Counted from the whole stretch's first letter, positions 10,808 through 51,981 are shown. The stretch: 63,988 bases of DNA, filler included, from Stramenopiles sp. TOSAG23-6 (GCA_900128565.1; 7 parts of 7 records of this genome joined end to end with filler, not necessarily neighbours in it), one strand, 5' to 3'. Notes: a model not told the origin generated them from the letters alone. Numbers and translations are program-made.

Positions 10808-10918
10808 ATGTATTTTGGAAAAATATTTCAAAAAAAAATCTAAAAACATTTGTTAGGTACAAAATTTCGTACGAAAAAAAAATTTCGATTTTTTTGTAAA
10901 AAAAAAAATAAAACATAC

Positions 10919-11883: not shown

Positions 11884-12569
11884 ATTCTTTTTGCGGAGAC
11901 TTTTGCTAATGTAGTCGTATAGTGTGAAAGTGTGAAATTAAAAAAAAAATAAAATCGTTAGATACAAAATGTACTATGAAAAAAAATTGAAAAAAAAATT
12001 AGTTTTTTTTTTTTTTTTTTTCTTAGGTACAAAATTTCGTATAAAAAAAAAAAATTAAAATTCATGATAAAAACGTATGCCTTCGCTCGTCGTTTACGTA
12101 ATTGGTCCCAACTATTATTTTTAGAGCCATGATATTGATCTTTTCTCTCGCCAACACGATGAAGAAGATGAAGAAGTTCCTTGTTTCCTTGATTTAAAAT
12201 TTTTCTCTGAGCTCTTCCCTTAATTTCTTTATACAAATCATTGGAATGCAAAGCGCGACTTCGTTTTACGACTTTTTCATGTTCTCGCACTTCATGAGAC
12301 ACATAAGATTTCGCATTCATAATGAGTTCATCATGCATGGCGTGATGTGCCTTTATCCACATTCTCTGGGTCATATGAAGTTTAGGTCCTTTCAGGTCTA
12401 TTTCTTTATGAATCATTTTTGGTTTTCTTTGAGACTTTTGGACAGATCGAAGCATCGCCATCAAGTATTTTTCACCAGATTCTGGTTGTATTTGATTATC
12501 AAGTGTATCCCGTTCCGACACACGTCCCATGATTTCATCCCTTAGACTTTCGGTAGACCTTCGAGCCAT
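11884..12569 (-). CDS. Hypothetical basic protein (weak CFAP97/KIAA1430-like); family intron 11915-12078
   Basis: ORF 11958..12569 runs into an ATACGT-type family insert; RKILNQGNKELLHLLHRV segment. Confidence 0.4.
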
Positions 12570-15630: not shown

Positions 15631-15910
15631 TGGCTAATTATTGTATATATAGTGTTGTTTATTGTATATAAATAGTATAAGGATTTCGTGTGTATGTGAT
15701 ATCGGTGTAAAAAGCACAAGTTTCTTAGTAGTATATAATTTAAACCAGAAATAATTGGAAAGTCGAAATCTCAAAATTGCGATTGGAAACAAAAAAAATA
15801 TGTATTTATTTTTTACCAAAAAATGTTTTTATTAAGATAAAAATTTCAATATTTTTTTTGTACCAAATTTTGTACCTAACAAAAAAAACATTTTTTTGAA
15901 TTATTTTCAG

Positions 15911-16591: not shown

Positions 16592-16864
16592 GAAATATCA
16601 GGTTAATTAGTTAGATTTAGATTTCGTGATTTATATTTTAATCGACTGTTGGCCATATATTCAAATGGACATCAACGCCGGCCACCACTCATCTGATACC
16701 ATTCGTGTGTCTGTGTGGCCACTAATTGTTATATGTTATAAAGAGAATAAAGAGATTCATTCTTAAGTTAATTAAGCAGATTTAGATTATATTGGACCCT
16801 ATACTTTCTTTATCTAAATTATTATATATATCCATTGCGTGTTTCTGAAAATAATATAGAGATA

Positions 16865-17730
16865 ATGCCACAGGATGACGTACCGAAGAATCTAATATGC
16901 CCTATTACACAAGACTTATTTAAAGATCCTGTTTTTGCTGCAGATGGTCACACGTATGAAAGAGCTGCAATTTTGCGCCACTTTCAATTTTCAAAAATTA
17001 CGTCACCTTTAACAAATGAATCGTTGCCGCATTTTAACCTTGTGTCAAATTTTCATTGTAAATCTCTATGTTTGGAATGGAAACAACAACAAGATAACAA
17101 GATGAGTTACCTCGAATCACTGTTGTTGAAATGCTTTCAAGCGAAAAATTCGGCAGACATTATTAACACTATTACACAAATGATTGAGTTGGTTACCAAC
17201 TCTGAAACATGTATTCTTCAAATGTCAAGTCTCGATAAGTTGAAATTAGTTTTCGTTGCCGCCAGTAATTATACAGAAGAAGTTGAATCTGTATTGGATA
17301 CACTACAAATGATGTGTAAAGAGAAGAACGATAAATGGCTTCAAAAGCTTATTAAAATAAGAGAAATGAGAAANGTCAATGAAGAATCCGTTGTTGCTTT
17401 GGAAAATGAGATTGATGAAGAAGTCAAAGTAGCAAAGGCTGCATTTGAAAAGGCAAAGAAGAAATTACCAGCAGCAAAGAAACGATTCAAAGATGCAAAA
17501 GCGAAAAGATCAGCGCAAAGTAATTTGAATCGGATAGAGAGTGCAATTTCAGAAACAAAGAAGAAATATGACGAAATTGTTCAAGCACAAATGGAGAAGA
17601 TTGATTGTTTGAATGGTTTTAAAAAGTTGACAAAATCATTTATAGAAGAGGAGACAAAACTTTATTCCAGATTGGATGAAATTGATGATATCGTTGATGA
17701 GAATGTACCACCTACAGTATCTAATAATAA

Positions 17731-17765
<35 letters not shown>

Positions 17766-18490
17766 GTAGTAGTAGTGGTAGTAGTAGTAGTAGTAGTAGT
17801 GGTAGTAATGGTATTATTATTATTAGTAGTAGTAGTAGTAGTGGAAAAAAACGAAAATCGAGTTCATCATCATCATCATCATCTAATAGCGCAGTAAAGT
17901 GTCAAAAGATAGAAAATAAAGGTGCGCGGAATTTATTTGAACTTGGTCATGCAAAATATCATGGCACTGACTTTCAAACTATTGATGAAAAGAATGGACA
18001 ACGAATGATTGAATCTGCAGCTATTGCTGGTTTTCCAATGGCTATTGCTTGTTGTACATATAGTGGCTGGAATGGTTATAAAAAGGATGATAAAAAAGCA
18101 TTTAAGATGTTTATGGATAATAGTGATTATAGTTATGCTCAATATTATATTGGTCGATGCTATTATTATGGTTTTGGTGTTGCTAAAGATAAAAAAGAAG
18201 CTTTCAAGTGGTATACGAAATCGGCTAATTTAGGTAATAGTATGGGACAATTTGGACTAGGTTGGTGTTTTTATCATGGTTGGGGTGTTGATCAAGACAG
18301 AAAAGAAGCTTTCAAGTGGTGGACTAAATCTGCTAATTTAGGTAATAGTACAGGACAATATCATCTTGGTAATTGCTATTTTTATGGTCGTGGTGTTGCT
18401 GAAGACGACAATGCAGCTAAAAAATGGTATACTAAATCTGCTAATTTAGGTAATAGTGATGCAAAAGACATGCTTGATGACTACTTCTAA
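16865..18490 (+). CDS. U-box + coiled coil + poly-Ser + Sel1 repeat protein
   Basis: U-box LICPITQDLFKDPVFAADGHTYERAAI and Sel1 repeats AQYYIGRCYYYGFGVAKDKKEAFKWYTKSANLG. Confidence 0.9.
17730..17882 (+). repeat. (AGT)n/(TCA)n microsatellite encoding poly-Ser
   Basis: Imperfect trinucleotide run seen directly. Confidence 0.9.
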
Positions 18491-18770
18491 ATTCTGTTTT
18501 TGCTTACATTTTTATACCTAACATTTTTATTTTCAAAAAATAAAATAAATATATTTTAAACTGCATTAAAAATAAAATTTATTTTTCAAATTTCATTTTT
18601 TTTTAAATTTATTCCTACTAAAATAGTTTTGTTTTGCAATATCTTTCAAATGTGATGATTTTAATGGACCNNNNNNNNNNNNNNNNNNNNNNNNNNNNNN
18701 NNNNNNNNNNNNNNTTAATTAATTAANNNNNNNNNNNNNNNNNNNNNNNNNNNNNNNNNNNNNNNNNNNN

Positions 18771-24711: not shown

Positions 24712-26476
24712 ATGAATCTTTCTTCTGCACCAATGGCAATCAATAATAATCGCCCTCCAGCGCTTCCTCCATTGAGCACCTTATTTCAGGGAGCTCCAGC
24801 TACCCCAGTTACACAAGGAATGCTTGGCGTAGGAGAGCGCGACAGTTTCTCGAGTACATACGAATTAGGACGAATTATAGGGCGTGGTAGCGCGTCTCTT
24901 GTTCGACAAGCTCGACATAGAGTCACTGGCCAAATATGTGCCGTGAAACATATTAATATGTCATCTATCCATTATAAAGATCGACAGCAGCTTCGAGTAG
25001 AGGTGACTATTTTAAAGAATGCGCGTCACCGAAACATTGTTTCACTATTAGATTTGTACGAGACGAGAGATGAGCTTATTCTTGTTATGGAATACGCATT
25101 AGGGGGTGAACTCTTTGACCGAATTGTTGCAAAGGGAAAATATTCTGAGCACGAAGCAAGTATTGTAATGACAAAACTTTTAAAGGCTGTTGAATATCTT
25201 CATAACAGAAATATTGTTCATCGTGATATAAAACCAGAAAATATTTTACTTGCGTCTCCTGAAAGTGACACAGATATCAAGGTCTCTGATTTCGGTATTG
25301 CAAAAATTTTAAAAGGCCATGTTTCCACGATTAATGCACCTACAGGTGTTGCAGCTGGATTTGGTTTAGTTTCGGATAATTCTAATAATAGTAGTGTTTC
25401 TCGGTCAAGAACTTCGAGACATCCAGTAGCTGCGTCACTTCGGCCACAGACTTCTTTACGAGAAATTTCTAGTTTATCTCAGAATAGCTCACTTAGACAA
25501 CCATCTAGTTTCCGTGGTTCTTCGAGTTTACTTACCAGTTGTCTTCGGAATGATCCACAAGTTAGACCAACTCGTGCATTTTCTACATGCGGGACCGATT
25601 GTTATATGTACGTTTGTATTGTGAATTTCATTTTTTTTTTGCTTTTTTTGTACCAAATTTCATACCTAAAACATTTTTTATTGACTGATTTCGAATTTGA
25701 CATATCTTCTCAAAATTCATGGCCCCTGAAGTATTAGGCGTACAGCCTTCAAAAACGAATCGAAATGAAGGGTATCATGCTCCAGTGGATATGTGGAGTA
25801 TGTATGTTTTATTTTTTTTTGTATGAATTTTTTTTCATACGAAATTTTTTACCTAACAAACTTTATAGATTTTTTTTTTGAAATATTTTTTCAAAATACA
25901 TTGGTGTAGTTATGTATATTTTACTCAGTGGCGAGCCGCCATTTGAAAATGATTTTTATGTACGTTTCAAAATTGAATGTATTTTTTTTGTACAATGAAA
26001 ATTTTGTATGAAAATTTTTTGTACAATGAAAATTTTGTATTAAAATTTTGTACCTAACAAAGCATTTTTATAAAACAAATATATATGTTTTCACTATACA
26101 TGCTCCGAGTCTTTCTGTGAATAATAGTTTGAATCTTAATCAGAATGATGCAGTTTGTGGCAGTGCAACTTTTGCTGCAGGCAATTGGTTTGCTGGTCAG
26201 CGCAATAGAAGTGACTTTTCAGTTCGTTTTAATGACGTCTACTGGGGTACAATATCTGCAGAAGCTAAAGATTTAATTTGCTGCCTCTTGACAAAAAACC
26301 CAGAACGAAGGATTACTGCTTCGCAAGCATTGAAACACCCTTGGTTAAAAGGCGAAACACATTCTTTAGGAACAGGGGATACATTGCCTGAATCACATAG
26401 TCTTCAACTGCGACGATATATTTCTCAAAGAAAAGAAAGTATGAGTGGATGCTTTGGTATGGATGTTGATACTTAA
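24712..26476 (+). CDS. CAMK-group Ser/Thr kinase; family introns 25608-25720, 25802-25901, 25960-26101
   Basis: [20 protein letters not shown]. Splicing restores [29 protein letters not shown] and ISAEAKDLI...[12 protein letters not shown]. Confidence 0.92.
25802..25901 (+). mobile_element. Representative copy of the Introner-like GT-AT intron family
   Basis: AT|GTATGTTTT...TTTCATACGAAATTTTTTACCTAAC...TTTTGAAATATTTTTTCAAAATAC-AT|. Removal gives the kinase motif DMWSIG. Confidence 0.85.
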
Positions 26477-26720
26477 CTATTTTGTAGAAATAAAAGATTT
26501 TGTACACCACAAAAGATTGTTTTTTGTTTTCATTTTTTATTCAAAGATGGATTTATCATTTTTTTTATTCGCCAAAAGCAATATAACAATGTATTTATAG
26601 CTATAATATAGTCACTTACACTTTGCTATAGAAAAAAACACCTATGTGGAAGAAAGATTTCAGCGGGTCTTCAGGTACTCAATTTAGCATTCGAATTTGC
26701 TGAGTGCTACCTTGAAAGAT

Positions 26721-26939: not shown

Positions 26940-27026
26940 ACGTATCGTGAAAAAATATTTCAAAAAAAAATTCGTTAGGTACGAAATTTCGTACGAAAAA
27001 AAATTAGAAATTCATATAAAACGCAC

Positions 27027-27636: not shown

Positions 27637-28175
27637 GTTTACTTAATACAATAACAAATGATACCACAAAGACGATAAATTATTCTAAAGTAATACAAAA
27701 CGAAACAAATGTATACGTATATCCCTAACTATTGTGTCACCAATGCGGATGTAATAGCTTTTTTGTAAGAAGTAAAAAAATAACAAAAGTTCTTTTTTAG
27801 AGGCCAATAATAATCCAGAGAGACCTGTCATAAAAAAAAAAAAAAAATGGAAGTCAAAATTTCTGTCAAGATTTCGTGTCGTCATCATCGTGATTGATTG
27901 CACATGGTGTTGTGGGATCTCACGTACTTTCCAACAACACCTTGTGTAAAAACACCTTGTGTAAAAACACCTTGTGTAAAAACACCATGTATTTCACCAA
28001 ANNNNNNNNNNNNNNNNNNNNNNNNNNNNNNNNNNNNNNNNNNNNTTAATTAATTAANNNNNNNNNNNNNNNNNNNNNNNNNNNNNNNNNNNNNNNNNNN
28101 NAATTTCTTTTTTTTTTCGTAGTAAATGTTGTACCTAACCAGTTTTTTTTTCATAAATATTTTTTCACAATACTT

Positions 28176-29695
28176 ACTTCAAAGATTGGTCGAGAAAGAG
28201 GAAGAACTCAGACAAAAAGTTGTTGACGAGGGACAAGGAGATGTATTACGACACTTCTTACAACGACAACATGGTCTACTAGAGCAAGAACAAGCCCTCC
28301 GTGGAGAGGTTGAAGCAAAGGAAAATGAATTAGCTAGCATTCGTGTACGTTTTCAAAATTGAATTTCAAATTTTTTTTTTTTAACGATTTTTTTTTTACC
28401 GAAAAAAAAAAATATTTTTCACAATACGATCTTCTTTATGTAACGTTGATATGTCAAATATGGATGAGAGTGAATTGGAACGAGCGAAGCTTTTTGTCGA
28501 GTGGAAAACAAATGTAAAAGCAAAACATGTACGTTTTTATCATGAATTTTAATTTTTTTTTCATACGAAATTTTGTACCTAAGATTTTTTTTTTTTTTTT
28601 TTTTTTTTNNNNNNNNNNNNNNNNNNNNNNNNNNNNNNNNNNNNNTCATGAATTTTAATTTTTTTTTACATGTATATTTTCATAATGAATTTCAAAATTT
28701 ATTTTTTCATAGAAAAGCATACAGCTTGTTGTACTTAACAAATTTCAAATTCAACAGATTTTTCACAACATATGAGTATTTACGTGAATTCCGTGATGAG
28801 CAGTACCGTATGTTAATGTCGATCAAGACTAGGCGAGATACGATGCATGTAGTGGCTGAGTTGGAGAAAAAATCTCAGCTTGATAGCGGAAAGAAAAAAT
28901 CTGAAGATTACAAATTAGAAATTGAAAAAGCAGAGCATCGTATAAAACTTTTAGAGCAGGGTATTCTAAAAGCAGGCACAGCTATGAAGGAGTTCCGGCG
29001 TGAATTTGAACAATTGCGGGTGGCGATCATGCTAGATAAGACAATCAAAAGTACACAAATGGCAGCTTTGGATGAGCACAAAAAACGTTTACTAAGAGCA
29101 GAAAAAATGTATGAAGAATGTACGTTTTCATCATGAATTTCAAAAAAAAAAAAGATCTACCAAATCCAAATGTTTTTTACCTAACGTTTTTTTTACAACA
29201 AAACAAATATATTTTTACAATACATTGGTTGATCAAGAACGAGAGCGCATAAGAAAAGAAGAAGCAGAAAAGTGGAAGCCACGTCTCAAAGCAGCAAAAG
29301 ATAAGATGGCATTGCACCTTCGACAGCAACAGGAAAAGATGAAAGCAAAGATTGCTCAGGTACGGGAAGCATTGGGAAATAGATATAAAGAGGGATTTGA
29401 TCCACTTTTACGGGAAGCTGAAGCTCGATATGCTGAAGAAGCTCAAGAAAGTGAAAGGATACGGCAACAAATCAAAGCTAAAGAGTCTGGTCTTCGAAAA
29501 GCGCAAAAAGAAATCCGTCGATTAGAAAAGAATTTGAAATTTAAAAAAGAGAATTTGCTTACGGAAGAGCAGCACAAGGAAATGAAATCTTTAAACACGG
29601 AACTAAGAAATCTCTGGGTTGAGTTAAAAACGGATCCAGAAGAAGTAGCTGGTTTTCTCGCTGATATGAAAGAGCTTACAAAAGCAGAATCGTAA
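28176..29695 (+). CDS. 3' part of a coiled-coil protein; family introns 28345-28429, 28529-~28773 (gapped), 29120-29225
   Basis: E/K/R-rich exons join in frame after removal of the family inserts. Confidence 0.7.
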
Positions 29696-29735
29696 ATTAT
29701 ACTATAAAAAATCAAAATTCGATTCATTTTTATTT

Positions 29736-31707
29736 TTAATTGTTTTGAATTGATATTTGGCCATTCATCAATATAGTACGTTTGACGAGTTCTTTTGTCA
29801 TTAAACAACGTTTCTCTCGATCACTTTTATATTCTTGTAAGTTTTGACCATATAACTTCATAGCTTCCTCTTCATCTATAGAATATTGTTGTTCATTCGT
29901 CGATATGGTATACACTAAACCACCAAACGATGCTTCGCATGTAATACTTTTTGATGGATCGTTTTGATCGACCAAAGTACCTTTAATTACAGCTTCTTGT
30001 AAGAATAATGTTAGTACAGATTTGTCATTCTTGATTCCAATGCATCGTAATAAACATTCATTAGATTTAAAGTCCTCTGCAATGACCAATGGTTTTGCAG
30101 AAGTAATAAAAGAATTTTGTGTTTTGTTTTCTAACCTCGCTTTCACTATTTTACATTCTTTCTGCAATATTCCAGAATTATCATGCTTCTTCACATATAA
30201 TTCACCTTCATCCCAAACAGACAATATAATGGATATTTCTGTGCTGTCGTTTTCTTGGATTGATGCAGATGATGTAGGTATTGAAGATATTACACATTCT
30301 TCTTCATCAAGATTATTCACAGTAATATCATCTACTTTCACATGTAATGTATCATTAGGATTAGTATCACTCATTTTGATAATTCGTGTTTCAAGTTTTG
30401 CTGGTAAAGATCTATCGATATTCCACACAATAAAAGGATTGTCAAATGCTATTTCTGGAACTGAATTTGTATGAATACTCATCCTTGCTTCCAAATCCTT
30501 TCCATATGCATTTTCAGCTTTTACACGGCTGCAAGAATTAACGTATTGTGAAAAAATATTTCAAAAAAAAGATCGTTAGGTACGAAATTTTGTATGAAAA
30601 AAACATTAAATTAGACATTCATCTAAAACATACACGAGGTTTCCATCCAACTGTGATAATGATGAAAGTCTCTGAATGATTCGAAATTGATAATCCGCGC
30701 ATTCACACACCGGATTTCCCGCTACAGAAAAGTTTTCAAGTGTTTTTATGTCACTGATATACTCCAATTGTTTAATGCCACAGATAAAATTGTCTTTTAG
30801 TGATACTGTATCGTGAAAAAATATTTTATATTTGAAAAAAAAAAAGTTAGGTATAAAATTTACTATAAAAAAAAAAAGTAGTAAAAAAATAATTTAAAAT
30901 TCATAATGAAAACAATACATTTTTTCAGAGCTTTACAATTTTTTAAATTTTCTATACTAGAAAAATTATTATTATCAAGACTACATGTGTGTAAAAATTG
31001 CAGTTTTGTTATTCCTTCACCTAATTCTGAAATATTATTATTATCCAATAAAAGTGTCCATATTGTGAAAAAATATTTTTTTTGCTTAAAAAAATCGTTA
31101 GGTACAAATTTTCGTATGAAATGTTTTTTTGGAAATTCATAAAAAAACGTACTCTTAATTGTATCGCGGAACCTTTGCCAATACCATCAGTCGATACAAT
31201 GTCGTTATACCCCAAATCCAGGTATTGCAAATGTTCCATTTCCTCTAAACCTGTAATATTACAGATATGGTTATTTCTCAGACAGAGTTTTACTAAAAAC
31301 TTTGTTTTTATTGCTTTAGGCATGACTTGGATATTATTATTATTAGCAAGAATGGTTTCTAGAGAAGCTCCACCAACGCATTCAGAGAGTCCATATATAG
31401 TATCTGGGCTATTTTCGAAAGGTTTTGCAAACACATTTAATGAATCCACGACATTATTTGAAATATTAAGAGATCGAAGTTTAGGGATTGAAGCTAAAGG
31501 AATCAAAGAATCTGCTGAGAGAACGTTTGACGAAAGGTCAAGAAATTGAAGGTGAATGCAATTTTGTAAAACTGCAACGTCTGATAAATTTTGATCAGTT
31601 GCTACAAACTCTAAATAAGCTGGAGTATTGCTAACAGGCGAACGACCTAGTCGGCGCATACCTTTAGCAAGATCTTCTTTTTGTAGTACATTCCCAGATT
31701 GATTCAT
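29736..31707 (-). CDS. Leucine-rich repeat protein, LRRC23/LRGUK-like; family introns 30541-30633, 30806-30918, 31058-31152
   Basis: LQFLDLSSN, LRSLNISNN, LQYLDLGYN; spliced QLR|TLLLDNN, LKK|LSLKDN and LDGNLV|N. Confidence 0.8.
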
Positions 31708-31952
31708 ATTGATTTAGCAGAAATGAGTGCGTAAATGAGATTAGATTCTTTGATCATGGAGAGGATTTAGCTTTTTGTTGTATTTGTTGTAACGGTCACA
31801 TTCATCGATGGGGGACCAGGTAACACAACAACAAAAGTGCTGTCATTTTCATTTTTTCAAAAACATCAATTTAATATTTTTTGACTCATTTCATTTGATA
31901 TATTTGGTGACAGAGACAAAGACTTTCATTTCCATCCTCTTCATTTAATAAT

Positions 31953-32577
31953 ATGGTTCAGACTCGTTCATTGTCTAAAGGCTCGAAGAAACTCAATCTT
32001 CGTACCCGTAAAGTCTCAAAAGGTTCACTCAAACCTATCCCTAAAACAGCAAAGAAGCCCAGTGAATGTGGTATGACTTCTCTATTGATGAGTACTGAAC
32101 TATATTTACGTATTCGGCAGAAATGCAACGGTAAAATACTTTGTAGTGTAGAACCATCTTTGCGGGATAAAAATAATAATCTTCGAGCTCTTACAAATGC
32201 TGAGTTGAACACTAAAGGTTTCATTGGTAAAAGCTTAACTATTGGTCCATCAACTGGTGTACACCGAAAAAAAGGTGTCACTGGGCACAAAATGACCTTC
32301 TCCAATAAAAGGGGCTATTTTACAATTGCTCAAATGTTAAAACGTATTTCAGATTTCGAATCAAAGGATCGTTTAAAGACAAGTGAAATTGGTGATAAAG
32401 GTGTGGACACCAGCAACATATTTCATATACGTTATCATCATGAATTTCAAATTTATTTGTTTTTCATACGAAATTTCGTAGCTAATATTTTTTTCTTTTT
32501 TGAATGTTTTTGCTTTACATAAATGCTTTGTTTGGAAGAAGAATATGTACTCATTGTCTTGGAGAGATAAAATGTAA
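31953..32577 (+). CDS. Hypothetical basic protein; family intron 32427-32520 (ATACGT...AT)
   Basis: The ORF runs into a family insert; the spliced end reads DTSNIFH|KCFVWKKNMYSLSWRDKM*. Confidence 0.6.
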
Positions 32578-32815
32578 AAGTAAGTTGTAATGTTTGAATT
32601 GTATCATAATGAGTGCCACATGGCACCAGTACAATAAAAAACTGAATCTATCAAAGTGAAATTGTGGAAAATATTTTTTTGTAAAAAAATCGTTAGGTAC
32701 AAAATTCCGTACGAAAAAAAACTTAAATTTGAAATTAATTGTGAAAACTCAAAAAAAACTCACGAAAACATTCTGAAAAACAATTCGAATACATTTATTG
32801 AATGTAAAAAAAAAC

Positions 32816-32962
32816 AAATGTATTGATTTATCCGAATGTAACATAAAATAAATGTATTGATTTATCCGAATATAAAATAAAATAAATGTATTGATTTATC
32901 CGAATATAAAATAAAATAAGTGTATTGATTTATCCGAATATAAAATCCGAATGTAAAATAAA
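32816..32962. repeat. ~33-bp tandem minisatellite (AAATGTATTGATTTATCCGAATATAAAATAAAAT), ~4 copies
   Basis: Seen directly between convergent genes. Confidence 0.85.
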
Positions 32963-32980
32963 ATGAAACCCTAGCCCTAA

Positions 32981-34694
32981 TTAGAAAACTTTGTGCTTTG
33001 CAAACCAGTTTTCTAAATTTCGTTTTCTTTCCCCTGCATTCACTAAACCTCGCTTTTTTAGTCTAGTATATGATGCATCTGCAATAATTCCATGAATTTC
33101 TTTTTCCCTGTTTTCTCTCTCCTTCTTTTGTACTTTTCGAAAAGGGCTTCTTTGAAGTAATCTTTCAGCTGAGCGAGCTAATTTAGGGAAAATAATTTTT
33201 TTGGCTTCTTTTCTTTTCTGCCTTTTTTCGTGTGCTACTGCCTCTAAGGCTTCTTCTTCACTGAATAATTACTGTTAAAAAATATTTCAAAAATTTGATT
33301 TTTTTTGTTAGGTACGAAATTTTCATAGTAAAAAACATACATTTAAAATCAAAGTGAACAACGTACAAGAATACTATGAAATCAAAATACGAAATGTCTC
33401 CATTAGCATTTGTCTGAATAGCATCAAATATGTATTTTGGAAAAATATTTCAAAAAAATCTAAAAAAATTGTTAGGTACAACATTTCGTACGAAAAAAAA
33501 AATCGAATTTGAAAAAAAATAAATCATACATCATTCTAATTTCTTCTTCAGTTGCGCAACAAAATTTTCGTAGAGCCTCACATGTATTATGAAAAAATAT
33601 TTTTCTTTTTTTTTAAGTAAACAAAGTTCGTTAGGTCAGGTGCAAAACTTTTTATGAAAAAAAAAATGTTGGTAAAAATTTTTTAAAATGAAAACAAAAC
33701 AAAATCGTTAGGTACAAAATTTCGTACGAAACAAAAATGTAGGTAAAAAACTCATTTTTTAAAACGTACAAAATTCTACTAAATGTACAGTACCAGATTG
33801 ATCTATGTCCTTATCTACAAAGTATGTATAAAAAACTTTTGCAGAAACATCGAGCGATTTTAGCTTTTCCTTTAGTATTGAAAACTTGTTTATTTCGTGT
33901 TTCTTGTGTTTTTCACTATGTACAAATAAAAACTCTTTAAACATTTCCAAATTCATAGTTGAAACTGCTGTGTCTACATTAGGGTTAGGGTTATTTTGTT
34001 GATTTTGTCGTCTTTTCCAAGCTTGGAGAATTGCCCGATGTTTTTTTTCCTCGTTCAGATTTCGTGTTACATGAATATTTGATCCTTGAGTATTCGTATT
34101 ATTTAAAGTATTTGCTTGTGGAATATGTAGAGACCTGAACTTTGACACAACGTTTTCATCTTTATTGGAACGAAAAACATTAGGGTTAGGGTTGTCATTA
34201 GGGTTAGGGTTAAATATATTTGATACTGTCGCTGCTGCTTTTGATCGAACTTTCTTCAATTCCGCGTTTGTCCTTCCTGGTGATTGATCTAATATAGCTT
34301 TCATCGATTGTTTAAATGTCTTTCTTTTTAAGGGTGGTCTAGTTTCTATTCCAATGCTATTTTCTATTCCAAAACGAAATGGACGATAAGTATGGTTGGA
34401 AACTGTTTTTTGCTCATCTGGTCTGAAAAACTCTTGCGGATTTACACCCCATATATTTTGTTTTCTTTGTTCATTTGATTGGGCGGTTGGATCTAAGCTA
34501 TCGGTAAGGAATGTTTTGGGGATATATTCCACAGCTGTTGGAGTAATATGCACTGCTGTTGGTGTTTTTCTAGTCTTTGCGAAGAAAGTTGACAAGTTGT
34601 TTGGCATTTTTTGCTTCTTTGAAACACTTTCAGGAAGTAAGTCACTTTTTAGTTCTTGGTAGGTTGCCTGACTAGAATTATTGCCGAGGTTCAT
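32981..34694 (-). CDS. EF-hand protein; family introns 33267-33366, 33430-33529, 33582-33769
   Basis: DIDQSGTVHLVEF|CEAL, EIRM|IFDAIQTNANGDISYFDFIVF|LFSEEE. Confidence 0.8.
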
Positions 34695-35065
34695 TTTATA
34701 AGCTATTATTTCATCGAATATAATTTTACTTTACCGTGAAGTTGATGCTATAATACAATAAATATCAAAACTTCTTCAGTTGTAAGTCGTTATAAGTTCT
34801 GCCTGTACTAAGTTGTGTTGACTTATGTAACTGTCTCGATTGGAGTCGTAGTAGTGTCACGTCACGCACGCTCAGTTAACGTTCTCAGTTTGCTGCTGTC
34901 ATAAGAAAAAAATCGCGAAAAAGCAGAAAAATAATAAAAAATCGCGAAAAAGCCCGCAAAACTTTTTAAACTTTGCGTCATCATCATAAAATACAAGGCT
35001 GTTTCATCGACGTAAAAAAGTATTAAATTTACTCCTCCTAATAGATTTAGCCAAAAATGACATAG

Positions 35066-37230
35066 ATGCAGTCATCTGCATTTGCTAGGAGCCTCAACTA
35101 CAACTTACTTCATGCTTGCTCGGAAAGTTACTACTCTTCTTCACCTCGAGAGTCAAATATGATATCAAGTTCCCCTGAAAGGAGTAGATTGACGACACCA
35201 CCAAAAGTGTATGCTCCATATCCGTCTTCCAACCAAATTGATACAAACGATCATAACAATGGAAAAGTATCCACTAATTCTGAGCAGATAAATCCAAAAC
35301 ACGCGCCTTTCCAAATTCCGTTGAGTGCTATTAAATCTAGTGAAAATGGAGTTGTAATAAATAAAAATAATGAGACATCAAACTCTGTGATACATACTCT
35401 CGGTGTTGAGTTCGTTGCTCTTTGCGGTTCTTCAAATGAAAGTTCTTCTGGGCGACTCAACAAGGTTTTTAATGATATGTGTTCTAGATTGGTTCTTAGG
35501 GGTAACTCACCGGCAAAATCAACTTTAATGGTATCAACTTTGGAACTAGAAAAAAGTGGTTGGTTAATTGGCTTATTTGACGCAGTTATTAAACATAGTA
35601 AAGTTATCCACCGCAGTAACTCAATTGATAACAAAATGAATTTGCTAATAATTGTTCTTGCACGATGTGCGCAAATTAGTCATACTGTAGCTGAGCTAAT
35701 TTGTATATATCCCAACTCTAAAGATTTAGTTCGTGTTTTATTACGGCTACTTGCAAAAGTCGAAAAAGGCGAAAAGGGAACGACTACTGATATGAACACT
35801 CAGACTGTAGCCTGCGCCCTCGCTACGTTAATGACTTTACGACTTGATAGTAATGTGGAAGCTCGTTTGTTTGCTGATGCGAATGTTCTGCAGATGTGGC
35901 ATCTTGTGTATAATATATTTAAACAGAGAATTTCTACTGACTTGTTTAGTGATCCCTATACACCTAACCCTAATATATTTAACTCTAACGCGATGAAAAA
36001 TTATAGAGTTTTTTATGTCAAACTCATTAGTGCTTCTATGGTATGCAAGATGATTAAAAATCCACGTTTACTTCAGAGTTTAGAAAACTTGTCGTATATA
36101 GAAAAATTCACGACGCATCTACTTCATAGTATTAGCCAATATAAAGGTATAAAAAAAGATATTGAAAATCAAAAACGTGTGAATTATTTAGGCATGAAAT
36201 TTGGTACGGATTCAATTGATAATAAGATAACTGTCTCCGATAGAGTTGAAAGTGTTCGTTGGTTAATTGCACTTCCAAATATTTTATTACTGGGCGCAAT
36301 GATTACAATTTCTCCAAAAATTACACGACATGCATTGAAACGTTGGAAAGGTGTAGATCTGAATCAAAAAGAAAATCTATGTGACTCTTTATTGTCAGTT
36401 GCTGCTGGTGCAGATACTGCAAGTGTTGTGTTTATGTCAATTACTGTCTTTACTAGTGTTGGAACCACCGATAGAGCTGATACGAATTCATGTACTTTCT
36501 TCGAAATTGAATTTTTTACTTATATATATATATATATATATATGTGTGTACGAAAGTTTGTACCTAACAATTTTATTTTTACTATTTCTTCACGATGCAT
36601 CTGTATGGAAAGAATCGGCTATTTTATTGTCATCTGAAGCACTTTTGATTATTAGATCATTGTTTATATACGATTGTGTACCTCTTTCTTTAGGTATGGA
36701 ATCTAATACGAAATTATCATCTGAAAGTTCTACAACTAAAAAAGTCAATGATTGGAATTTATGTACAAATACAAATATGACTGGAAATGGGAATTTGTCG
36801 GGCCAACTTTCTAATAGAATGTTTAAAAATCGCGATATGCTGAGAAATTACTCTTGTATTGGGGATGCAGGTAGACATTTGGAATCATCAAAAAAAAGTA
36901 ATAGAAATATTTACAATAATGGGAAAATGAATAATAAAAAATGGTCTGAATCTTTTGCTAAAAAACTCGCTATAGCCATAGCTGGTATAAAAATGGTGAC
37001 AAATACAAATGAAAACCAACATCATCATCAACAACAACAAGCAAATACATCGGGGGTTTTAGATACGGAAACAAAAATGGAATTAAATGGATTGGTAAAT
37101 ATCTCTGTACTTGCCAGGCAGCTACAGACATTTGGTATTTTATTAGTCTCTTGTTTTCAAATTCCTCGAGTGAATTCCCTAATATCATATCACATTTCCC
37201 CTAACATCATCAGTGGTGTAATTAAAAACT
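35066..37230 (+). CDS. Hypothetical protein, 3' truncated; family introns 36492-36600 and from 37231
   Basis: ORFs 35066..36637 and 36381..37277 are joined in frame by removing the insert. Confidence 0.7.
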
Positions 37231-37470
37231 GTATGAATGTTTTATTTTTTTTCAAATTCGAACTTTTTTTTTTATAAAAATTTTGTACCTAACGATTTTT
37301 TTTTGAAATATTTTTCCANNNNNNNNNNNNNNNNNNNNNNNNNNNNNNNNNNNNNNNNNNNNTTAATTAATTAANNNNNNNNNNNNNNNNNNNNNNNNNN
37401 NNNNNNNNNNNNNNNNNNGTACCTAACAATTTTTTTTAGATTTTTTTTGAAATATTTTTCCAAAATACAT

Positions 37471-39797
37471 GGAACTTATAAGGAAGGTGATTTCTCATTG
37501 ATTCAATTGCATCATTCGGCATCTACTGACACGAAATCATCCACTCTACATTCAAATATTTCAATTGATCGTTCACCATCTTTGACTACAACATCAGAAC
37601 ATAAAAATGTATGTTTTATTTTTTTTTTCGTATGAATTTTTTTTTCGTACGAAATTTTGTACCTAACAATTTTAAGTTTTTTTTTTTTGAAATATTTTTC
37701 CAAAATATATGTAATATTGAAAAGAAATGTATCAAGATCACCTTTATCAACTGTGTGTCCTAATAATAGTATACGACAAGATATGCGTACCCCTAACCAT
37801 AATAAAAATAACAACCCTAACCCTAAACATCTTAGAGTCCAAGCAGAGAAAACAGATTTTTCTCCTATAAATACTCCACAAGTGAATTATTCTAGCCCAA
37901 ACGACTCGTCTATAGAAAAAACATCGCATAAGAAATTAGTATTTGTCGAAAATGCCTCGGAATTTTCTGAAGGAAGAAAAATAAAAACATTAAAAGACGT
38001 CTGGCCTTTACCATCGATGGGATGTACATTTCAATTTCGAATGTTTTTTTTTTTGGTACGAAATTTTGTACCTAACAAAATTTTAATTTTTTTTTTGAAA
38101 TATTTTTTTTTTCGTATGAAATTTTGTACCTAACAAACTTTAATTTTTTTTAAATATTCATTTACAATACTTGGTCACAAGAAACAATTGATGAAATTGA
38201 ACGTTGTACGTTTTCATTATGAATTTCATTTTTTTTTTTTTTTTGGTTTTCGTACGAAATTTTNTACCTAACAAATTTCGAATTTAATTTGTTTTCTAAT
38301 ACATGTATTTCTGGTATTTGGACTGGTCAAAGTTTGAGGTCAACGGAAGCAAATGCAACGAATTGGAATGATATTGCCTTTCGATTTACAGTGGATAATC
38401 CTATGACGGGTACATCATCAATGACTGGCGAGGGTGTGTCATTGTGGAGAGGTCAAAAAATAGATTTTGATATTATTGGTAGAAGCATGTATGTTTTATT
38501 TTTTTTCAATTTCGAATTTATTTTTCGTATGAAATTTTGTACCTAACAATTTTTTTTGAAATTTTTTTTTCAAATTTTTTTCCAAAATACATACTAGACA
38601 CAAATATATTGACGCTACAGAAGCAACACAAAGGTAAGTTTAATAATGTCATAAAATATACAGCTGCATTTGAGTTTCAAGTATTTAACATTGATGAATC
38701 AATTCATCCAGGAGAAAATATGAAAACTGGAATTGGTTGCAGGATTCGGGGTTTTTATGTACGTTTTTATTATGAATTTCAAATTTATTAATTTTTTCAT
38801 ACGAAATTTTGTACCTGAACAATTTTTTTTCATTTNTTTTACTAAAAACAAAATATTTTTCACACTACATGGAGCTGATCAAAAAGGTTATTTATATTTG
38901 CAAAAAGAAAAAAANGCNACTGCGAATGTNGATAACTTGCTGGCAGGGTTAACACCAATGACATCAAAGAGGTCAAGAGAGAGTTTCTCATTTTCATCTG
39001 GAAAAATAACAACTCTTAAAAGTCGTTCAAGAAGTGTCTTACATAGTATTATTAATGATTCTGATAAAAAGGAATGCAAAAGATCAAATGTGGATGACCA
39101 AAATTTTGATGATTCTGAAAATATTGTTATGAGTAATCACCACAATGATGAAGTGGCTAGTACTAGTACTAATATTTCTAGTAGAAAACGGAAAAGAAGT
39201 AGTAGAGATAGTAGATTATCACACTATAAGAATTTTTTAGCAGGAATTATAGTTAGTGGAATTATTGGGCCTCAAGCTGAAGATGTACGTTTTCATCATG
39301 AATTTCAATTTTTTTTTTTCATACGAAATTTCATACCTAACAAGTATTTTTTTAACTAAAAAAAAATCTATTTTTTTACAATACATGCTTTACGTAAATT
39401 CCGACAAACAAATAATATTAAAGATGTAGAACATAATAAAGCATTAGAATCTATGGGACTCTCAAAATCTCAGTTTAATATGTATGTTTTATTTTTTTTT
39501 TGTATGATTTTTTTTCGTACGAAATTTTGTACCTAACGATTTTTGTTTTGAAATATTTTTCCAAAATACATGATGCATACTTCATTGAATAATGGTAATC
39601 CTATTTCCTCTGATAGAAATAGTTCGAATGATATATGTAAAATATGTATGGAAAAACCTATTAACTCTGTTATTTTAAATTGTATGCATTTTGCTGTGTG
39701 TTTGACGTGTGGAGACAAATTATTAGAAACAACAACACCTAAATGTCCTTTTTGTCGGCAGAATATTTCCAAGATTCAGCCAGTGTTTCGTTCATAA
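37471..39797 (+). CDS. 3' part of a C3HC4 RING-finger protein; seven family introns (37609-37710, 38024-38172, 38206-38304, 38489-38592, 38759-38870, 39285-39386, 39482-39571)
   Basis: All exons join in one frame under the same boundary rule; C-terminal CKICMEKPINSVILNCMHFAVCLTCG...CPFCR. Confidence 0.8.
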
Positions 39798-46632: not shown

Positions 46633-46804
46633 NNNNNNNNNNNNNNNNNNNNNNNNNNNNNNNNNNNNNNNNNNNNTTAATTAATTAANNNNNNNNNNNN
46701 NNNNNNNNNNNNNNNNNNNNNNNNNNNNNNNNTTTTTTTTTTTATAAAAATTTTGTACCTAACAAATTTTCAAAAAAAAATTGAAATATTTTTCCAAAAT
46801 ACGT

Positions 46805-49154: not shown

Positions 49155-51981
49155 ATGGTTCAACCAAGAAAAGTTAGCACAGGAATGGCTGTACCACCTC
49201 TTCCTCCTCGGCCACCTCTCCCAACTGCTCCTGCTCCGAGAGTTGAAACAATTGAAACAATTCAACCTCCATTACCAGGAGCACCTCTTCCTCTTGCCCC
49301 ACCGGCACCAGGAACACCGACAAGAAAGCACGTATCTGCTTATAATTCTGGAAGTAAATCCGTTGGTTCAAATAAAAATGAGGCAACTGTTTCTGAAGTA
49401 TCGCCACTTCCTCCGTTGCCACCTCCTGAGTCGGGCTCTATAACCAACGCGACGGATCTGTTGTCACTCCCTCCGTTACCGCCTCCAGAGTCTGGATCTG
49501 TAACCAATGTGTCGGAACAGGTACCAACACCCAGAAAACGTCAGAGAGATAAAAATGGACAATCAAAAGAAGGTTCAAAGAATTCTCAAAAAAGAAATGG
49601 ATATTCGAATTCAGCGAAACGCCGTCGTCGTTTTCAATCGAGAAAAGGTTCTAGAAGATCTTTGGATAAAGCGAAATCTGATATCGAAGTAGGGTTCTTA
49701 CAACGCAAAACTCGCATCGGATTACGTGACGCAAAAGATGCATATAAAATAATTGAACAGTGTGGCGAAGGTACATATGGGTACGTGGTATTTAGAATAA
49801 TATTATTGCTTTTAACCCATCAACGTGCTCAATTCTCTGTTTCTCGTTTTTGCATTTTCAGTCATTTTCTTCATTTGATATGTTGAATATCTGAATGCTT
49901 TTCTTCATTGTCACTTGATGGATTACATCATTTGATACGTTGACTAGCTTGATTGTTTTTTTTGGCTTCACTTTGATGTGTTAGCTTTGATTTTTTGAGT
50001 TTTATTTGTGTCAGTGTAATGCTTTAGAATGCATTGTACAATCTATCTTATATGTAGACTTTTTTGTCTATTTTCCCTTTCCCGTGTCATTTTAATGTTT
50101 CCCTTTATTATTATATAATTATATTATGAGTAGTTACTTACGAGCATAATTTCGCCCTCCCCACCTCACCTAACTCTATATCCAAACCAAACCGAACAAA
50201 ACCAATACTTCCGCACTTAAATTACTATTACTATTCCGAAAAAATCAAATTCTACTTTATATTCAACAATTTGCAATTTGCATGTTTAATCATTATCTAT
50301 TCGACTGTCCCATCCATTACTTATAAAATGTTCGACATCGATTTCTATTGATATGATACACTAAACAGACAAGTATACAAAGCAAAATGTAAAATTACAG
50401 GTCAAATTGTTGCAATGAAAAAGATTCGCATGGAAAATGAAAAAGAAGGAGTAAGTAGTACATAAATAATTGTTTTATACAAGTGAAATTTTGACAATCT
50501 ACCAATCTACGCATAGAGAAACGTTTCGTCGGTAAAATCGCATGTTGTATCAAGTTTGTACCCTAATCGTTTATTGATTATAATGATTGTGTTAGTTGGA
50601 ATTATTGTGCGAATAAGTTTCCAAGCCTATTTTATTATACTTTTATAGTAATTGGCATTTTCACAGTAGGGTTAAATAGGCACAGCAGTCGATCTTACTC
50701 AGTACTAGTGTTGGTTATTCTCCGTCTCTTTCCTTTAGNGAGAGAAATGACTTCTAGTGGTGTAAACTGAGAATCGCGATGAAACGCACATCATGTGATA
50801 GTATTAGGGTTGTAACTTAGTGTGTTCGATGCAGTGAAACTATTGCAATTCTTATTGGCTATATCTAGTCCAAAGCTGTCAAACATGGGCTTTGATTTTT
50901 GTTTTTTTGTGTTTTTTTTGTGTTTTTTTCTTATTTTATTTAAAAAAAAAGCAAGATCTTATCATCTTCTGCTTATCATTAATATTCCCTCTTAGTATAG
51001 TTTCCAATAACTGCTTTACGCGAAATAAAAATTTTGAAGAGGATTTCAAGGCACCCCTCTATTGTCCGATTGATTGAAATTGTAACAACAAAAGCAACCG
51101 ATCATAACCGAAATCGAGGCGCAGTGTATATGGTCTTTGAGTATATGGATCACGATCTNACAGGTCTTTTAGATACCCCTGGAGTTGTTTTGTCGAAGGC
51201 ACACATAAAATGTTACATGAGGCAGTTACTAGAAGGCTTGTTATACATTCACAAACATGGTATTTTGCATCGTGATATTAAAGGTGCAAATCTTTTGTTG
51301 AATAATAATGGTGAACTTAAAATTGCTGATTGGGGTTTGAGTAGAGTTTTTCTAGGTAGAGAAAAAAAGTACACGACACGTGTTGCAACCTTATGGTATC
51401 GAGCACCGGAACTTTTACTTGGTACAACTTCCTATGGTGCTGAAATTGATATTTGGTCTGTTGGATGTATTTTTGCAGAGTTATTGTATCGTAAGCCAAT
51501 TTTGCCTGGGCGTGTTGAGATGGATCAAATTAAGCTAATTTGGAATCTTTGTGGNACTCCAACACAAAAGAATTTTCCAAATCATGATAGATTGCCTTGG
51601 TTTCATCTGTGTCGTCCTGAGAAGACTCGTGCTTCAGTGTTGAAGAAACGATTTGCTGGATTTTCAAATCTTGAACTTGATCTTGTGAGTAAAATGCTCA
51701 CCTTGGACCCAGCGAAACGAATTACTGCCGCAAAGGCTCTAGATCATGATTATTTTTGGTCAGGTTCCGGTGTCCCGAAACCTGAGGATTTGCCAAAGTT
51801 TAAAGTGAAATCAGCGCATGAATTTGAAGCGAAACAGAGACGAAATGCTGCAAAAAAAAGACAAGAAAATAACGTAAAACGAGGTCATGTACTACCTAAG
51901 CATGCTGGTAATAGAATGCATCATTCGCGAAAGAGTGGTTCAAATTTTCGCCCGCCACCTAGGCCTGGTTTACCCCCATGA
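49155..51981 (+). CDS. Transcriptional CDK (CDK9/CDK12/CDKC type) with Pro-rich N-terminus; canonical GT-AG introns 49781-50368 and 50451-51000
   Basis: Spliced GEGTYG|QVYKA...[50 protein letters not shown]. Confidence 0.92.

What the first reader, a model, noticed from the sequence alone, without database searches (positions are those of the whole stretch)
28345..33366. Intron ends carry a 2-nt direct repeat and GTA...TAC inverted termini: Introner/transposon signature
Seen: the last two intron bases copy the last two bases of the upstream exon. In my tally 21 of 32 are identical (19 AT/AT, GT/GT at 30541-30633, TT/TT at 33267-33366) and the other 11 differ at only one base. Between the repeats, GTAYGTTTT and AAAATAC are imperfect reverse complements. 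Known: Introner elements of Micromonas and Aureococcus are short TIR DNA transposons whose target-site duplication supplies one splice site. Inference: the same mechanism with a 2-bp, AT-preferring duplication that gives scar-free intron gain without needing an AG target.
Basis: partly seen in the sequence, partly recalled or inferred. Interest (0 to 1): 0.88.

Follow-up and report, generated by a model that had tools for sequence, protein, structure and literature searches.

The report
Repeated introns that end in AT
This marine protist's genes are full of copies of one ~100-base intron that begins with a normal GT signal but ends in AT instead of AG, which looks like a mobile "introner"; the claimed 2-base insertion scar is not proven.

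Summary
The sequence facts hold. The window carries about 49 copies of one ~95-110 nt intron family (nhmmer): NN|GTAYGTTTT...TACCTAAC...TTTTTCMAMAATAC+NN|. Reading frames fit this removal for 35 curated copies. Kinase motifs and homologues fix two boundaries exactly. Two RNA contigs show 30541-30633 removed. These introns do not end in AG. Two unrelated introns in a CDK gene are ordinary GT-AG with exon ends GG and GA.

The "2-nt direct repeat" is mostly consensus. Both dinucleotides are usually AT: 22 of 35 pairs are identical against 19.6 expected from re-pairing (p=0.09). A locus-specific signal exists only at the first base: 4 of 4 upstream G have a 3' G (Fisher 1e-4), but 0 of 6 upstream T are copied. 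A 3' GT is shared by three similar copies. The inverted termini are only GTA/TAC. I found no transposase, empty site or clear non-genic copy.

Verdict: a high-copy introner-like family with a non-AG 3' cut that looks set by position. The 2-bp duplication (as in ISL2EU transposons and Fritillaria introns) is possible but unproven. It is a new variant of a known kind.

The parts
28345..28429 (+). Family intron i07, GTACG...CACAATAC+GA; upstream exon ends GT
   Evidence: Frames fit only offset +2 mod 3. Retaining GT or GA both gives Arg.
28529..28773 (+). Family intron i08 (AT/AT), with an N gap inside
29120..29225 (+). Family intron i09 (AT/AT)
   Evidence: Frames: 155 codons open at offset +2
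30541..30633 (-). Family intron i34 (GT/GT), 3' end ...CACAATACGT
   Evidence: RNA contigs X6 record 10 and X9 record 26 join 30540|30634; frames
30806..30918 (-). Family intron i33, GTATTG...CACGATAC+AG (AT/AG)
   Evidence: Keeping the exon's AT gives the leucine-rich-repeat consensus LKKLSLKDNFI.
31058..31152 (-). Family intron i32, GTACG...CACAATAT+GG (GA/GG)
   Evidence: Frames: 64 codons open at offset +2 against 11-12 at other offsets
32427..32520 (+). Family intron i10 that starts ATACG (A at +1) and ends ...TTTACAT
   Evidence: X6 record 11 stops at 32423. That is the leftmost placement if CAT is repeated at both ends. Frames.
32661..32748 (-). Family copy downstream of the minus-strand gene (3' UTR-like), 5' GTGAGTTTT
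   Evidence: nhmmer 37.9 bits
33267..33366 (-). A canonical ...TTATTCAG end at 33261 is also in frame.
   Evidence: X9 record 27 (33120-33311) is unspliced here.
33430..33529 (-). Family intron i30 (AT/AT)
33582..33769 (-). Family intron i29 (TT/AT), the one RNA-informative case for where the cuts lie
   Evidence: X9 record 28 piece starts at 33768. That is the leftmost placement expected if the cut is before GTACG and after ATACAT.
25608..25720 (+). Family intron i04 in a CaM-kinase gene, ends ...AAAATTCAT
   Evidence: Removal restores CGTDCYMAPEVL, as in homologues P0123 and P0124
25802..25901 (+). Family intron i05 in the same kinase (AT/AT)
   Evidence: Removal restores [19 protein letters not shown], as in homologues
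49781..50368 (+). Non-family intron K1, GTACGT...ACTAAACAG, canonical GT-AG; exon ends GG
   Evidence: Spliced product GEGTYGQVYKAK matches P0002. No nhmmer hit.
50451..51000 (+). Non-family intron K2, GTAAGT...TATAG, canonical GT-AG; exon ends GA
   Evidence: Product [15 protein letters not shown] matches P0002
15790..15910 (+). Degenerate family copy on the plus strand between two minus-strand ORFs; the only candidate non-intronic or antisense copy
   Evidence: nhmmer 19.1 bits over the core only; sequence

Best explanation
The window comes from an AT-rich marine protist whose closest named homologues are stramenopile. Its genes have been colonised by one family of ~95-110 nt introner-like elements.

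Each copy carries its own yeast-like 5' splice site (GTAYGTTTT), a branch-site block (TTTCGTACGAAATTTTGTACCTAAC) and a conserved 3' block (ATATTTTT[CT]CA[CA]AATAC). The spliceosome most likely cuts just before GTAYG and exactly two bases after the ATAC block. Those two bases are usually AT but can be GT, GA, GG, TT or AG, so the 3' cut looks set by position rather than by an AG.

Removal leaves the coding sequence intact. Copies sit after exonic AT (25 of 35) and before G (18 of 35).

Shown: the family, its copy density, precise removal, the non-AG ends, and coexistence with ordinary GT-AG introns.

Inferred: spread as a mobile element; the GT...AT reading of the cut sites rather than AT...AC; and a position-set 3' cut.

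Open: whether the terminal dinucleotide is a 2-bp target-site duplication or part of the element.
For: Family and copy number. nhmmer gives 55 hits, about 49 elements, in 64 kb. Nearest-neighbour identity is 0.71-0.95 among 31 copies of 120 nt or less; the mean over all pairs is 0.71 against 0.61 for shuffled copies. Five contig ends and two N gaps lie inside elements. Summed contig depth over intron bins reaches 26,613 in DNA run X3 against about 1-7 over exon bins. The tool warns that this is not a copy number.

Boundaries. Offset +2 (mod 3) is the best or a consistent frame for the 35 curated introns (exon chains for i13, i14 and i37 checked by hand). Removal of i04 and i05 restores CYMAPEVL and DMWSIGVV, as in P0123 and P0124. 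RNA contigs from two runs of one study join 30540|30634.

GT...AT rather than AT...AC. The X9 record 28 piece starts at 33768, as expected for a cut before GTACG. Keeping the exon's dinucleotide gives Phe after an EF-hand Glu (i29), Leu in a leucine-rich-repeat consensus (i33) and Ile at GH+4 of a WD repeat (i21). Those motif consensuses are recalled, not tested here.

AG is not used. 11 of 31 introns have an unused AG between the branch block and the 3' end.

Family-specific AT flank. The two canonical GT-AG introns in the CDK gene have exon ends GG and GA.

Hint of recent gain. Relatives' gene models P0123 and P0124 run cleanly through the i04 and i05 sites.
Against: Mobility is not shown. 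I found no empty site, no polymorphism and no autonomous partner.

Two family introns break the rule. i35 (27026..26942) and i40 (10918..10810) are in frame only if the cut falls right after ATAC or if another 5' site is used.

RNA support for the exact cut rests on contigs. One joint is fully shown. Three more are inferred from where the laid pieces end, and their second pieces were not listed.

The RNA libraries could hold DNA of an intron-less allele. No DNA contig covered that site.

Four introns start with A at +1 and show no compensating change at the 3' end.

The intron RNAs fold no better than shuffled copies (z from +0.18 to -1.65), so I have no structural explanation for the position-set cut.
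Confidence: 0.7

Rival explanations
1. The element proper is GTAYG...ATAC, a non-autonomous cut-and-paste DNA transposon that duplicates a 2-bp target, usually AT. The spliceosome removes the element plus the 3' copy of the duplication, so the gain leaves no scar at any target.
For: All 4 upstream-G introns carry G at the matching 3' position, against 1 of 31 others (Fisher 9.5e-5). First-base matches are 27 of 35 against 21.5 expected, p=0.002.

In those four the exonic G sits at codon position 1 or 2, so it is likely ancestral (my reading). In the CACAATAC subfamily the terminal dinucleotide varies (AT, GT, GA, GG, TT, AG), as a duplication would.

ISL2EU elements make 2-bp duplications, typically AT (PMC4122938). 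Fritillaria introns show an exonic TAC that formed the 3' site (PMC11282704). The canonical introns K1 and K2 lack the AT flank.
Against: Whole-dinucleotide identity does not exceed re-pairing (22 against 19.6, p=0.09). 0 of 6 upstream-T introns have a 3' T. In two of these (i21, i29) a change of the exonic T to the intron's A would alter the residue, so it is unlikely to have drifted freely.

i37 is AT/GT and i13 is AT/TT. The 3' GT is shared by the similar copies i34, i35 and i37, which suggests inheritance with the element.

There is no terminal inverted repeat beyond GTA/TAC. No transposase turned up in 10 ORFs. I saw only one degenerate copy outside a sense-strand transcript.
Confidence: 0.3
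2. An RNA-mediated introner. The unit is GTAYG...ATACAT including its own AT end. It spreads by reverse splicing into transcripts at AT|G-like junctions, followed by reverse transcription and recombination. There is no duplication.
For: About 47 of about 49 copies lie in the sense strand of transcribed regions. There are no terminal inverted repeats. The CCAAAATAC subfamily ends in AT in 10 of 10 complete copies. A 3' GT is shared within one group of similar copies. The exon context A(-2) T(-1) | G(+1) looks like a splice-junction preference.
Against: The G/G association is unexplained by this model. The two canonical introns do not share the AT exon end, but that is only two introns. No reverse transcriptase was seen in the window. 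In a compact genome, selection alone can produce the sense-strand bias.
Confidence: 0.25
3. The cuts lie two bases upstream of where I place them: the intron is NN+GTAYG...ATAC. Most copies would then be AT...AC introns, the known alternative terminal pair.
For: For the 21 AT/AT introns and the GT/GT intron the two readings give the same mRNA, so frames and the RNA joint cannot separate them. Every copy would then end in AC or AT. i35 and i40 are in frame with a 3' cut right after ATAC.
Against: The intron would begin with T in 6 copies and the GTAYGT consensus would sit at +3 to +8, which has no precedent (established spliceosome knowledge, recalled). The X9 record 28 piece starts at 33768, which fits the GT cut exactly; under this rival reading it needs a mismatch. 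The residues at i21, i29 and i33 fit better when the exon's dinucleotide is kept.
Confidence: 0.12
4. The family is a transformed minor-spliceosome (U12-like) class. It would have a rigid 5' site and branch site, G or A at +1, and a 3' end chosen by distance. Physarum shows that such a class can expand greatly.
For: G or A occurs at +1: 4 copies start ATAYG. The 5' and branch blocks are highly conserved. The terminal pairs seen here (GT-AT, GT-GG, AT-AT) are listed among non-canonical U12-type introns, and GT-AT can be spliced by the U12-type machinery (PMC1557818, Table 2 and text passages). The family coexists with ordinary GT-AG introns.
Against: GTAYGT and TAC(C)TAAC resemble the yeast U2-type signals, not RTATCCTT and TCCTTAAC (recalled consensuses). 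The distance from the branch block to the 3' end is 33-56 nt, which is far longer than I recall for U12-type introns. No snRNA gene was found in the window.
Confidence: 0.08
5. These are old introns kept alike by unusually long splicing signals, not a mobile family.
For: The most conserved blocks are the splice signals themselves.
Against: Subfamilies differ in internal, non-signal segments (ATTTTTTTT... against CATCATGAATTTCAAA) and some copies are 0.90-0.95 identical. Contigs break inside copies. Phases are spread 15:11:9 (my count). Relatives' models pass cleanly through the i04 and i05 sites. Canonical introns in the same genome are long and unique.
Confidence: 0.05

Closest known systems
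Introner elements (Micromonas, Aureococcus, Symbiodinium, Chrysochromulina and others; Gozashti et al. 2022, PMC9860276, passages read; Huff et al. 2016, recalled only)
   Same: Many near-identical short introns at unrelated gene positions. The element brings at least one splice site. Splicing restores the mRNA. Marine protist host.
   Different: Known families mostly use GY-AG, with the duplication supplying a canonical site. Here the 3' end is not AG and varies. The duplication is unproven and would be only 2 bp, against the 3-9 bp quoted for earlier families. There is no inverted repeat of 6 bp or more.
Fritillaria borealis non-canonical introns (PMC13326754 results passages; PMC11282704 review passages; Henriet et al. 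2019 not held)
   Same: Introns thought to derive from transposons, with non-AG 3' ends (AC, AT). A short exonic motif before the intron is repeated as the last intron bases (YAY or TAC there; AT or CAT here). They coexist with a minority of canonical introns.
   Different: Fritillaria introns start with AG and lack GT. Here the 5' site is a strong GTAYGT with a strong branch block. Fritillaria introns are reported to have inverted repeats. The host is an animal.
Amoebophrya introner elements (PMC7789003, passages read)
   Same: Repeated non-canonical introns in a marine protist, with short direct repeats that overlap the exon/intron borders.
   Different: Those have 8-20 nt inverted repeats that form hairpins, direct repeats of 3-5 nt and no fixed terminal dinucleotides. 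Here there is no significant fold, the 5' site is fixed and any repeat is at most 2 nt.
ISL2EU / PHIS cut-and-paste transposons (PMC4122938, Discussion passage)
   Same: They make a 2-bp target-site duplication, typically AT, and prefer AT-rich targets.
   Different: No DDE transposase, no inverted repeats and no empty site were seen here. Membership is untested beyond the dinucleotide.
Non-canonical U12-type introns (PMC1557818, Table 2 and passages)
   Same: GT-AT, GT-GG and AT-AT terminal pairs. Rigid 5' and branch motifs. A tolerant 3' end.
   Different: The motif sequences differ and the branch-to-3' distance is 33-56 nt.

Membership tests
Introner (transposon-like intron family) | Many similar intron sequences at unrelated positions in different genes | tested here: met
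   About 49 elements in 64 kb; nearest-neighbour identity 0.71-0.95; contig ends fall inside copies
Introner (transposon-like intron family) | Copies are spliced precisely from mRNA | tested here: met
   RNA joint 30540|30634 in two contigs; kinase motifs restored at i04 and i05; frames for 35 copies. Two copies (i35, i40) do not fit the rule.
Introner (transposon-like intron family) | Recent mobility: presence/absence between strains or relatives | tested here: inconclusive
   No intron-less DNA joint was listed for run X3, but most joints were not shown. P0121 from another sample holds i04. Relatives' gene models are uninterrupted at i04 and i05, which is indirect evidence only.
Introner (transposon-like intron family) | Locus-specific target-site duplication | tested here: inconclusive
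   Dinucleotide 22 against 19.6 expected (p=0.09); first base p=0.002, driven by 4 G/G pairs; 0 of 6 T/T
Miniature inverted-repeat (MITE) type DNA transposon | Terminal inverted repeats of about 6 bp or more | tested here: not met
   Only GTA/TAC (3 bp, or 4 with GTAT/ATAC) is complementary in all copies. A longer match needs a bulge and occurs in one subfamily only.
ISL2EU / PHIS transposons | DDE transposase in autonomous copies | tested here: not met
   No transposase family among 10 ORFs scanned against Pfam. This covers only the window, and I did not scan every ORF.
ISL2EU / PHIS transposons | 2-bp duplication, typically AT | tested here: inconclusive
   AT flanks 25 of 35 copies, but this cannot be told apart from a consensus
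U12-type (minor) introns | 5' RTATCCTT and branch TCCTTAAC within about 10-26 nt of the 3' end (recalled consensus) | tested here: not met
   The 5' site is GTAYGTTTT and the branch block TACCTAAC lies 33-56 nt from the 3' end
Euglenid / hemistasiid non-conventional introns | Extensive base pairing that brings the intron ends together; no conserved GT | tested here: not met
   Six copies folded: z from +0.18 to -1.65. GT is present in 33 of 35.

The most novel reading that the evidence does not exclude
This organism's major spliceosome sets the 3' cut of these introns with a ruler, two bases past a conserved ...CAMAATAC block, whatever those two bases are. That lets a mobile element with a 2-bp duplication become a scar-free intron at any dinucleotide. 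It would have seeded thousands of GT...AT introns in an uncultured marine stramenopile, where GT-AG-only gene models would then be wrong genome-wide.
Probability: 0.3. Interest if true: 0.8.

Novelty: new variant of a known kind. Interest (0 to 1): 0.6.

Why it matters
If the reading holds, this is a natural case where canonical 5' and branch signals combine with a 3' cut that ignores AG. That bears on how the second splicing step picks its site, and on how transposon-like elements can create introns without needing a splice-like target.

There is also a practical side. Gene models that force GT-AG go wrong here. The public model P0122, identical to this window's kinase over 68% of the query, skips the conserved APE and SIGVV motifs that a GT...AT splice restores. 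The proteome predicted for this organism is therefore probably damaged at many such introns.

My literature searches returned no paper describing a GT...AT repeated intron family. Supplements were closed, and Henriet et al. 2019 and Huff et al. 2016 were not read.

Tried and rejected
No whole genome is held for this window.

I scanned three collections with the 18-base core motif. It gave 7 metagenome loci and 4 bacterial-genome loci. The 7 metagenome loci were checked in context and lack the element; the 4 bacterial-genome loci were not inspected and I take them for chance hits from their titles. Viral contigs gave none. The sample therefore could not be enlarged beyond the window.

The earlier-findings look-up held nothing for this genome.

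A protein search with the exon next to i29 found no relatives, so the junction residue could not be read from a transcript-derived protein. The cluster look-up added no names. The protein atlas gave no lineage.

Rfam at gathering threshold found no snRNA or other RNA family in the window. A Pfam scan of 10 ORFs found no transposase.

RNA folds of six copies were no better than shuffled copies, so I dropped a model in which paired ends position the cut.

I tested G(+1)/C(-3) pairing by covariation. Six G.U cases fit, but the two A(+1) introns in the set keep C, so it is not supported.

The DNA run X3 listed no intron-less joints. Only the best-supported of about 300 joints were shown, and the listed ones join one intron copy to another, so this says nothing either way. 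Parts without RNA cover are likewise uninformative.

I first misread the CDK gene's first intron as non-canonical. Reading the sequence showed GTACGT...ACAG, which P0002 confirmed.

Full report
**What the window is**

The window is 63,988 bases at about 33% G+C. It is built from short contigs joined by 44 N + TTAATTAATTAA + 44 N linkers. No whole genome is held for it.

The stretch 28646-37318 is held at 0.80-0.81 of sampled words by two small 2015 DNA runs of 'organism A'. Seawater metagenomes and poly(A) metatranscriptomes hold parts of it.

The genes are eukaryotic and include flagellar proteins (C1a-32, a Dpy-30 motif, leucine-rich repeats). The closest named homologues of a CaM-kinase are oomycete, ochrophyte and labyrinthulid proteins. 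I therefore read the source as a marine stramenopile-like flagellate.

**The thing itself**

Scans for the 5' motif and the branch-like motif show one repeated intron:

NN|GTAYGTTTT, then either ATTTTTTTT... or CATCATGAATTTCAAA..., then TTTCGTACGAAATTTTGTACCTAAC, a T-rich spacer, ATATTTTT[CT]CA[CA]AATAC, two more bases, then the next exon.

A profile built from 36 curated copies finds 55 nhmmer hits, about 49 elements, in 64 kb. Lengths run from 80 to 188 nt and most are 90-113. Nearest-neighbour identity is 0.71-0.95. The mean over all pairs is 0.71, against 0.61 for shuffled copies.

Five contig ends and two N gaps lie inside copies. In the metagenome run X3, bins holding introns reach a summed contig depth of 26,613, against about 1-7 for exon bins. 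The tool warns that this is not a copy number, but it fits a very high-copy repeat.

**Are the boundaries right?**

I set the 5' position at the G of GTAYG and the 3' anchor at the C of ATAC for 41 copies, then asked which 3' offset keeps the frames open. Offset +2 (mod 3) is best, or consistent along exon chains, for 35 copies. I checked i13, i14 and i37 by hand.

Frames cannot choose among +2, -1 and +5. Two introns in a CaM-kinase gene can:

- Removing 25608-25720 gives CGTDCYMAPEVL.
- Removing 25802-25901 gives [19 protein letters not shown].

These match the relatives P0123 and P0124.

Three further RNA contigs end where a leftmost-placed joint should lie for i10 (32423), i11 (36488) and i29 (33768). 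Their second pieces were not listed, so these count as consistent, not as proof.

The family introns therefore do not end in AG. In addition, 11 of 31 have an unused AG between the branch block and the 3' end.

Two copies do not fit. i35 (27026..26942) and i40 (10918..10810) are in frame only with a cut right after ATAC. For i40, an ATATGT site 4 nt upstream would also work. Four copies begin ATAYG rather than GTAYG (i10, i22, i36, i42).

**GT...AT or AT...AC?**

When the exon's last two bases equal the intron's last two, the intron can be written either as GTAYG...ATAC+NN or as NN+GTAYG...ATAC. Only unlike pairs can decide.

i29 (TT/AT) is crossed by X9 record 28, whose piece starts at 33768. 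With the tool's leftmost placement, this is what a cut before GTACG and after ATACAT predicts. The other reading needs a mismatch.

Keeping the exon's bases also gives better residues in three places: Phe after the last Glu of an EF-hand loop (i29), Leu in LKKLSLKDNFI (i33), and Ile at GH+4 of a WD repeat (i21). Those motif consensuses come from my own knowledge, not from a call.

I put GT...NN at about 0.85.

**Is the 2-nt repeat more than chance?**

| Measure | Observed (of 35) | Expected by re-pairing | p |
|---|---|---|---|
| Both bases identical | 22 (21 AT/AT, 1 GT/GT) | 19.6 | 0.09 |
| First base matches | 27 | 21.5 | 0.002 |
| Second base matches | 29 | 27.5 | 0.14 |

Of the 13 unlike pairs, 12 differ at one base and 1 at both. 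AT is the consensus on both sides (upstream 25 of 35, 3' end 27 of 35), and that explains the whole-dinucleotide result.

The first-base excess is all G. The four introns whose exon ends G-N all have G at the matching 3' place: i07 GT/GA, i32 GA/GG, i34 GT/GT and i36 GC/GA. Only 1 of the other 31 does (Fisher 9.5e-5). In these four the exonic G is at codon position 1 or 2, so it is probably ancestral.

Against a duplication:

- None of the six introns with T at that exon place has a 3' T. In two of them (i21, i29) a change of the exonic T to the intron's A would alter the residue.
- i37 is AT/GT and i13 is AT/TT.
- The 3' GT is shared by three similar copies (i34, i35, i37), as if it were part of the element.

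Gozashti et al. 2022 make the same caution in their methods: matches that hold across all introns cannot show a duplication (PMC9860276).

**Inverted termini**

GTA and TAC are nearly invariant: +1 G in 33 of 35, +2 T in 35, +3 A in 35, -5 T in 30, -4 A in 33, -3 C in 29. Beyond that, GTAYGTTTT against AAAATAC needs a bulge and applies only to the CCAAAATAC subfamily. The other copies end in CACAATAC or variants.

Six copies fold no better than shuffled copies. This is not an inverted repeat of the miniature-transposon (MITE) kind.

**Context**

The same genome has ordinary introns. In a CDK gene, 49781-50368 (GTACGT...ACTAAACAG) and 50451-51000 (GTAAGT...TATAG) are long, unique and GT-AG. Their product matches the relative P0002. 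Their exons end GG and GA, not AT, so the AT flank seems tied to the family, though that is only two introns.

About 47 of about 49 copies lie in the sense strand of coding or UTR-like sequence. One degenerate copy (15790-15910, plus strand) sits between two minus-strand ORFs. My count of phases is 15:11:9. No transposase was found in 10 ORFs and no snRNA in the window.

**Comparison with what is known**

- Introners can take a splice site from their duplication (PMC9860276, passages).
- ISL2EU transposons make 2-bp duplications, typically AT (PMC4122938, Discussion passage).
- In Fritillaria borealis most introns are non-canonical (AG/AC, AG/AT). A YAY triplet stands before the 5' site and forms the last three intron bases (PMC13326754, results passage). 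A review figure legend says an exonic TAC led to the 3' site (PMC11282704).
- Amoebophrya introners have 3-5 nt direct repeats over the borders plus 8-20 nt inverted repeats (PMC7789003, passages).

This family differs from all of these. It keeps a strong GTAYGT 5' site and a strong branch block, has no real inverted repeat, and cuts at a fixed place after a conserved 3' block.

I read only the passages named above. Supplements were closed. Henriet et al. 2019 was not held and Huff et al. 2016 is cited from recall.

**Verdict**

The family, its non-AG ends and its precise removal are well supported. Its introner nature is likely. The 2-bp duplication is possible, at about 0.3, but the statistic offered for it has no discriminating power.

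The public gene model P0122 for the kinase forces GT-AG and loses conserved motifs, so these introns seem not to have been recognised in that annotation.

I rate the finding a new variant of a known kind, interest 0.6.

Noticed in passing
window 10475, 14343, 33979, 34180, 34198, 35962, 37791, 37815, 42947, 59989, 60262 and others: Telomere-like CCCTAACCCTAA dimers occur 15 times with up to 1 mismatch, against 0.07 expected. Several lie inside coding sequence on the sense strand, where they read as Asn-Pro-Asn-Pro-Asn runs.
   Followed up: partly
window 24712-26700 (CaM-kinase gene); protein P0122: A public 'assembled CDS', identical to this gene over 68% of the query, splices with forced GT-AG sites. 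It loses MAPEVLGVQ and SIGVV, which the GT...AT rule restores and which relatives conserve. Gene models for this organism are probably wrong at many family introns.
   Followed up: partly
window 10810-10918 (i40, minus strand) and 26942-27026 (i35, minus strand): Two family introns are out of frame under the usual rule. They are in frame if the cut falls right after ATAC or, for i40, if an ATATGT site 4 nt upstream is used. Assembly error has not been excluded.
   Followed up: partly
window 32427, 47177, 12078 (minus strand), 6119 (minus strand): Four family introns start ATAYG instead of GTAYG (A at +1), with no visible compensating change at the 3' end.
   Followed up: no
window 32800-32930: Four tandem copies of a ~30-nt unit (AAATGTATTGATTTATCCGAAT...) lie just downstream of a minus-strand gene, next to a family copy.
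   Followed up: no
window 9301-9400, 18671-18770, 28002-28101, 37319-37418, 46633-46732, 55939-56038: Contigs are joined by identical 44 N + TTAATTAATTAA + 44 N linkers, so gene order across the linkers may be arbitrary.
   Followed up: no
window 6446-8656 and 16772-18490: Two intron-less paralogues share a similar N-terminal region. It looks like a U-box (my reading; not scanned against Pfam). One continues into armadillo-like repeats and the other into Sel1-like repeats with a long Ser run.
   Followed up: no
window 38024-38172, 33582-33769, 11915-12078, 25960-26101: Longer family introns (142-188 nt) hold two branch-block modules in tandem. These look like internal partial duplications rather than nested insertions.
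   Followed up: no
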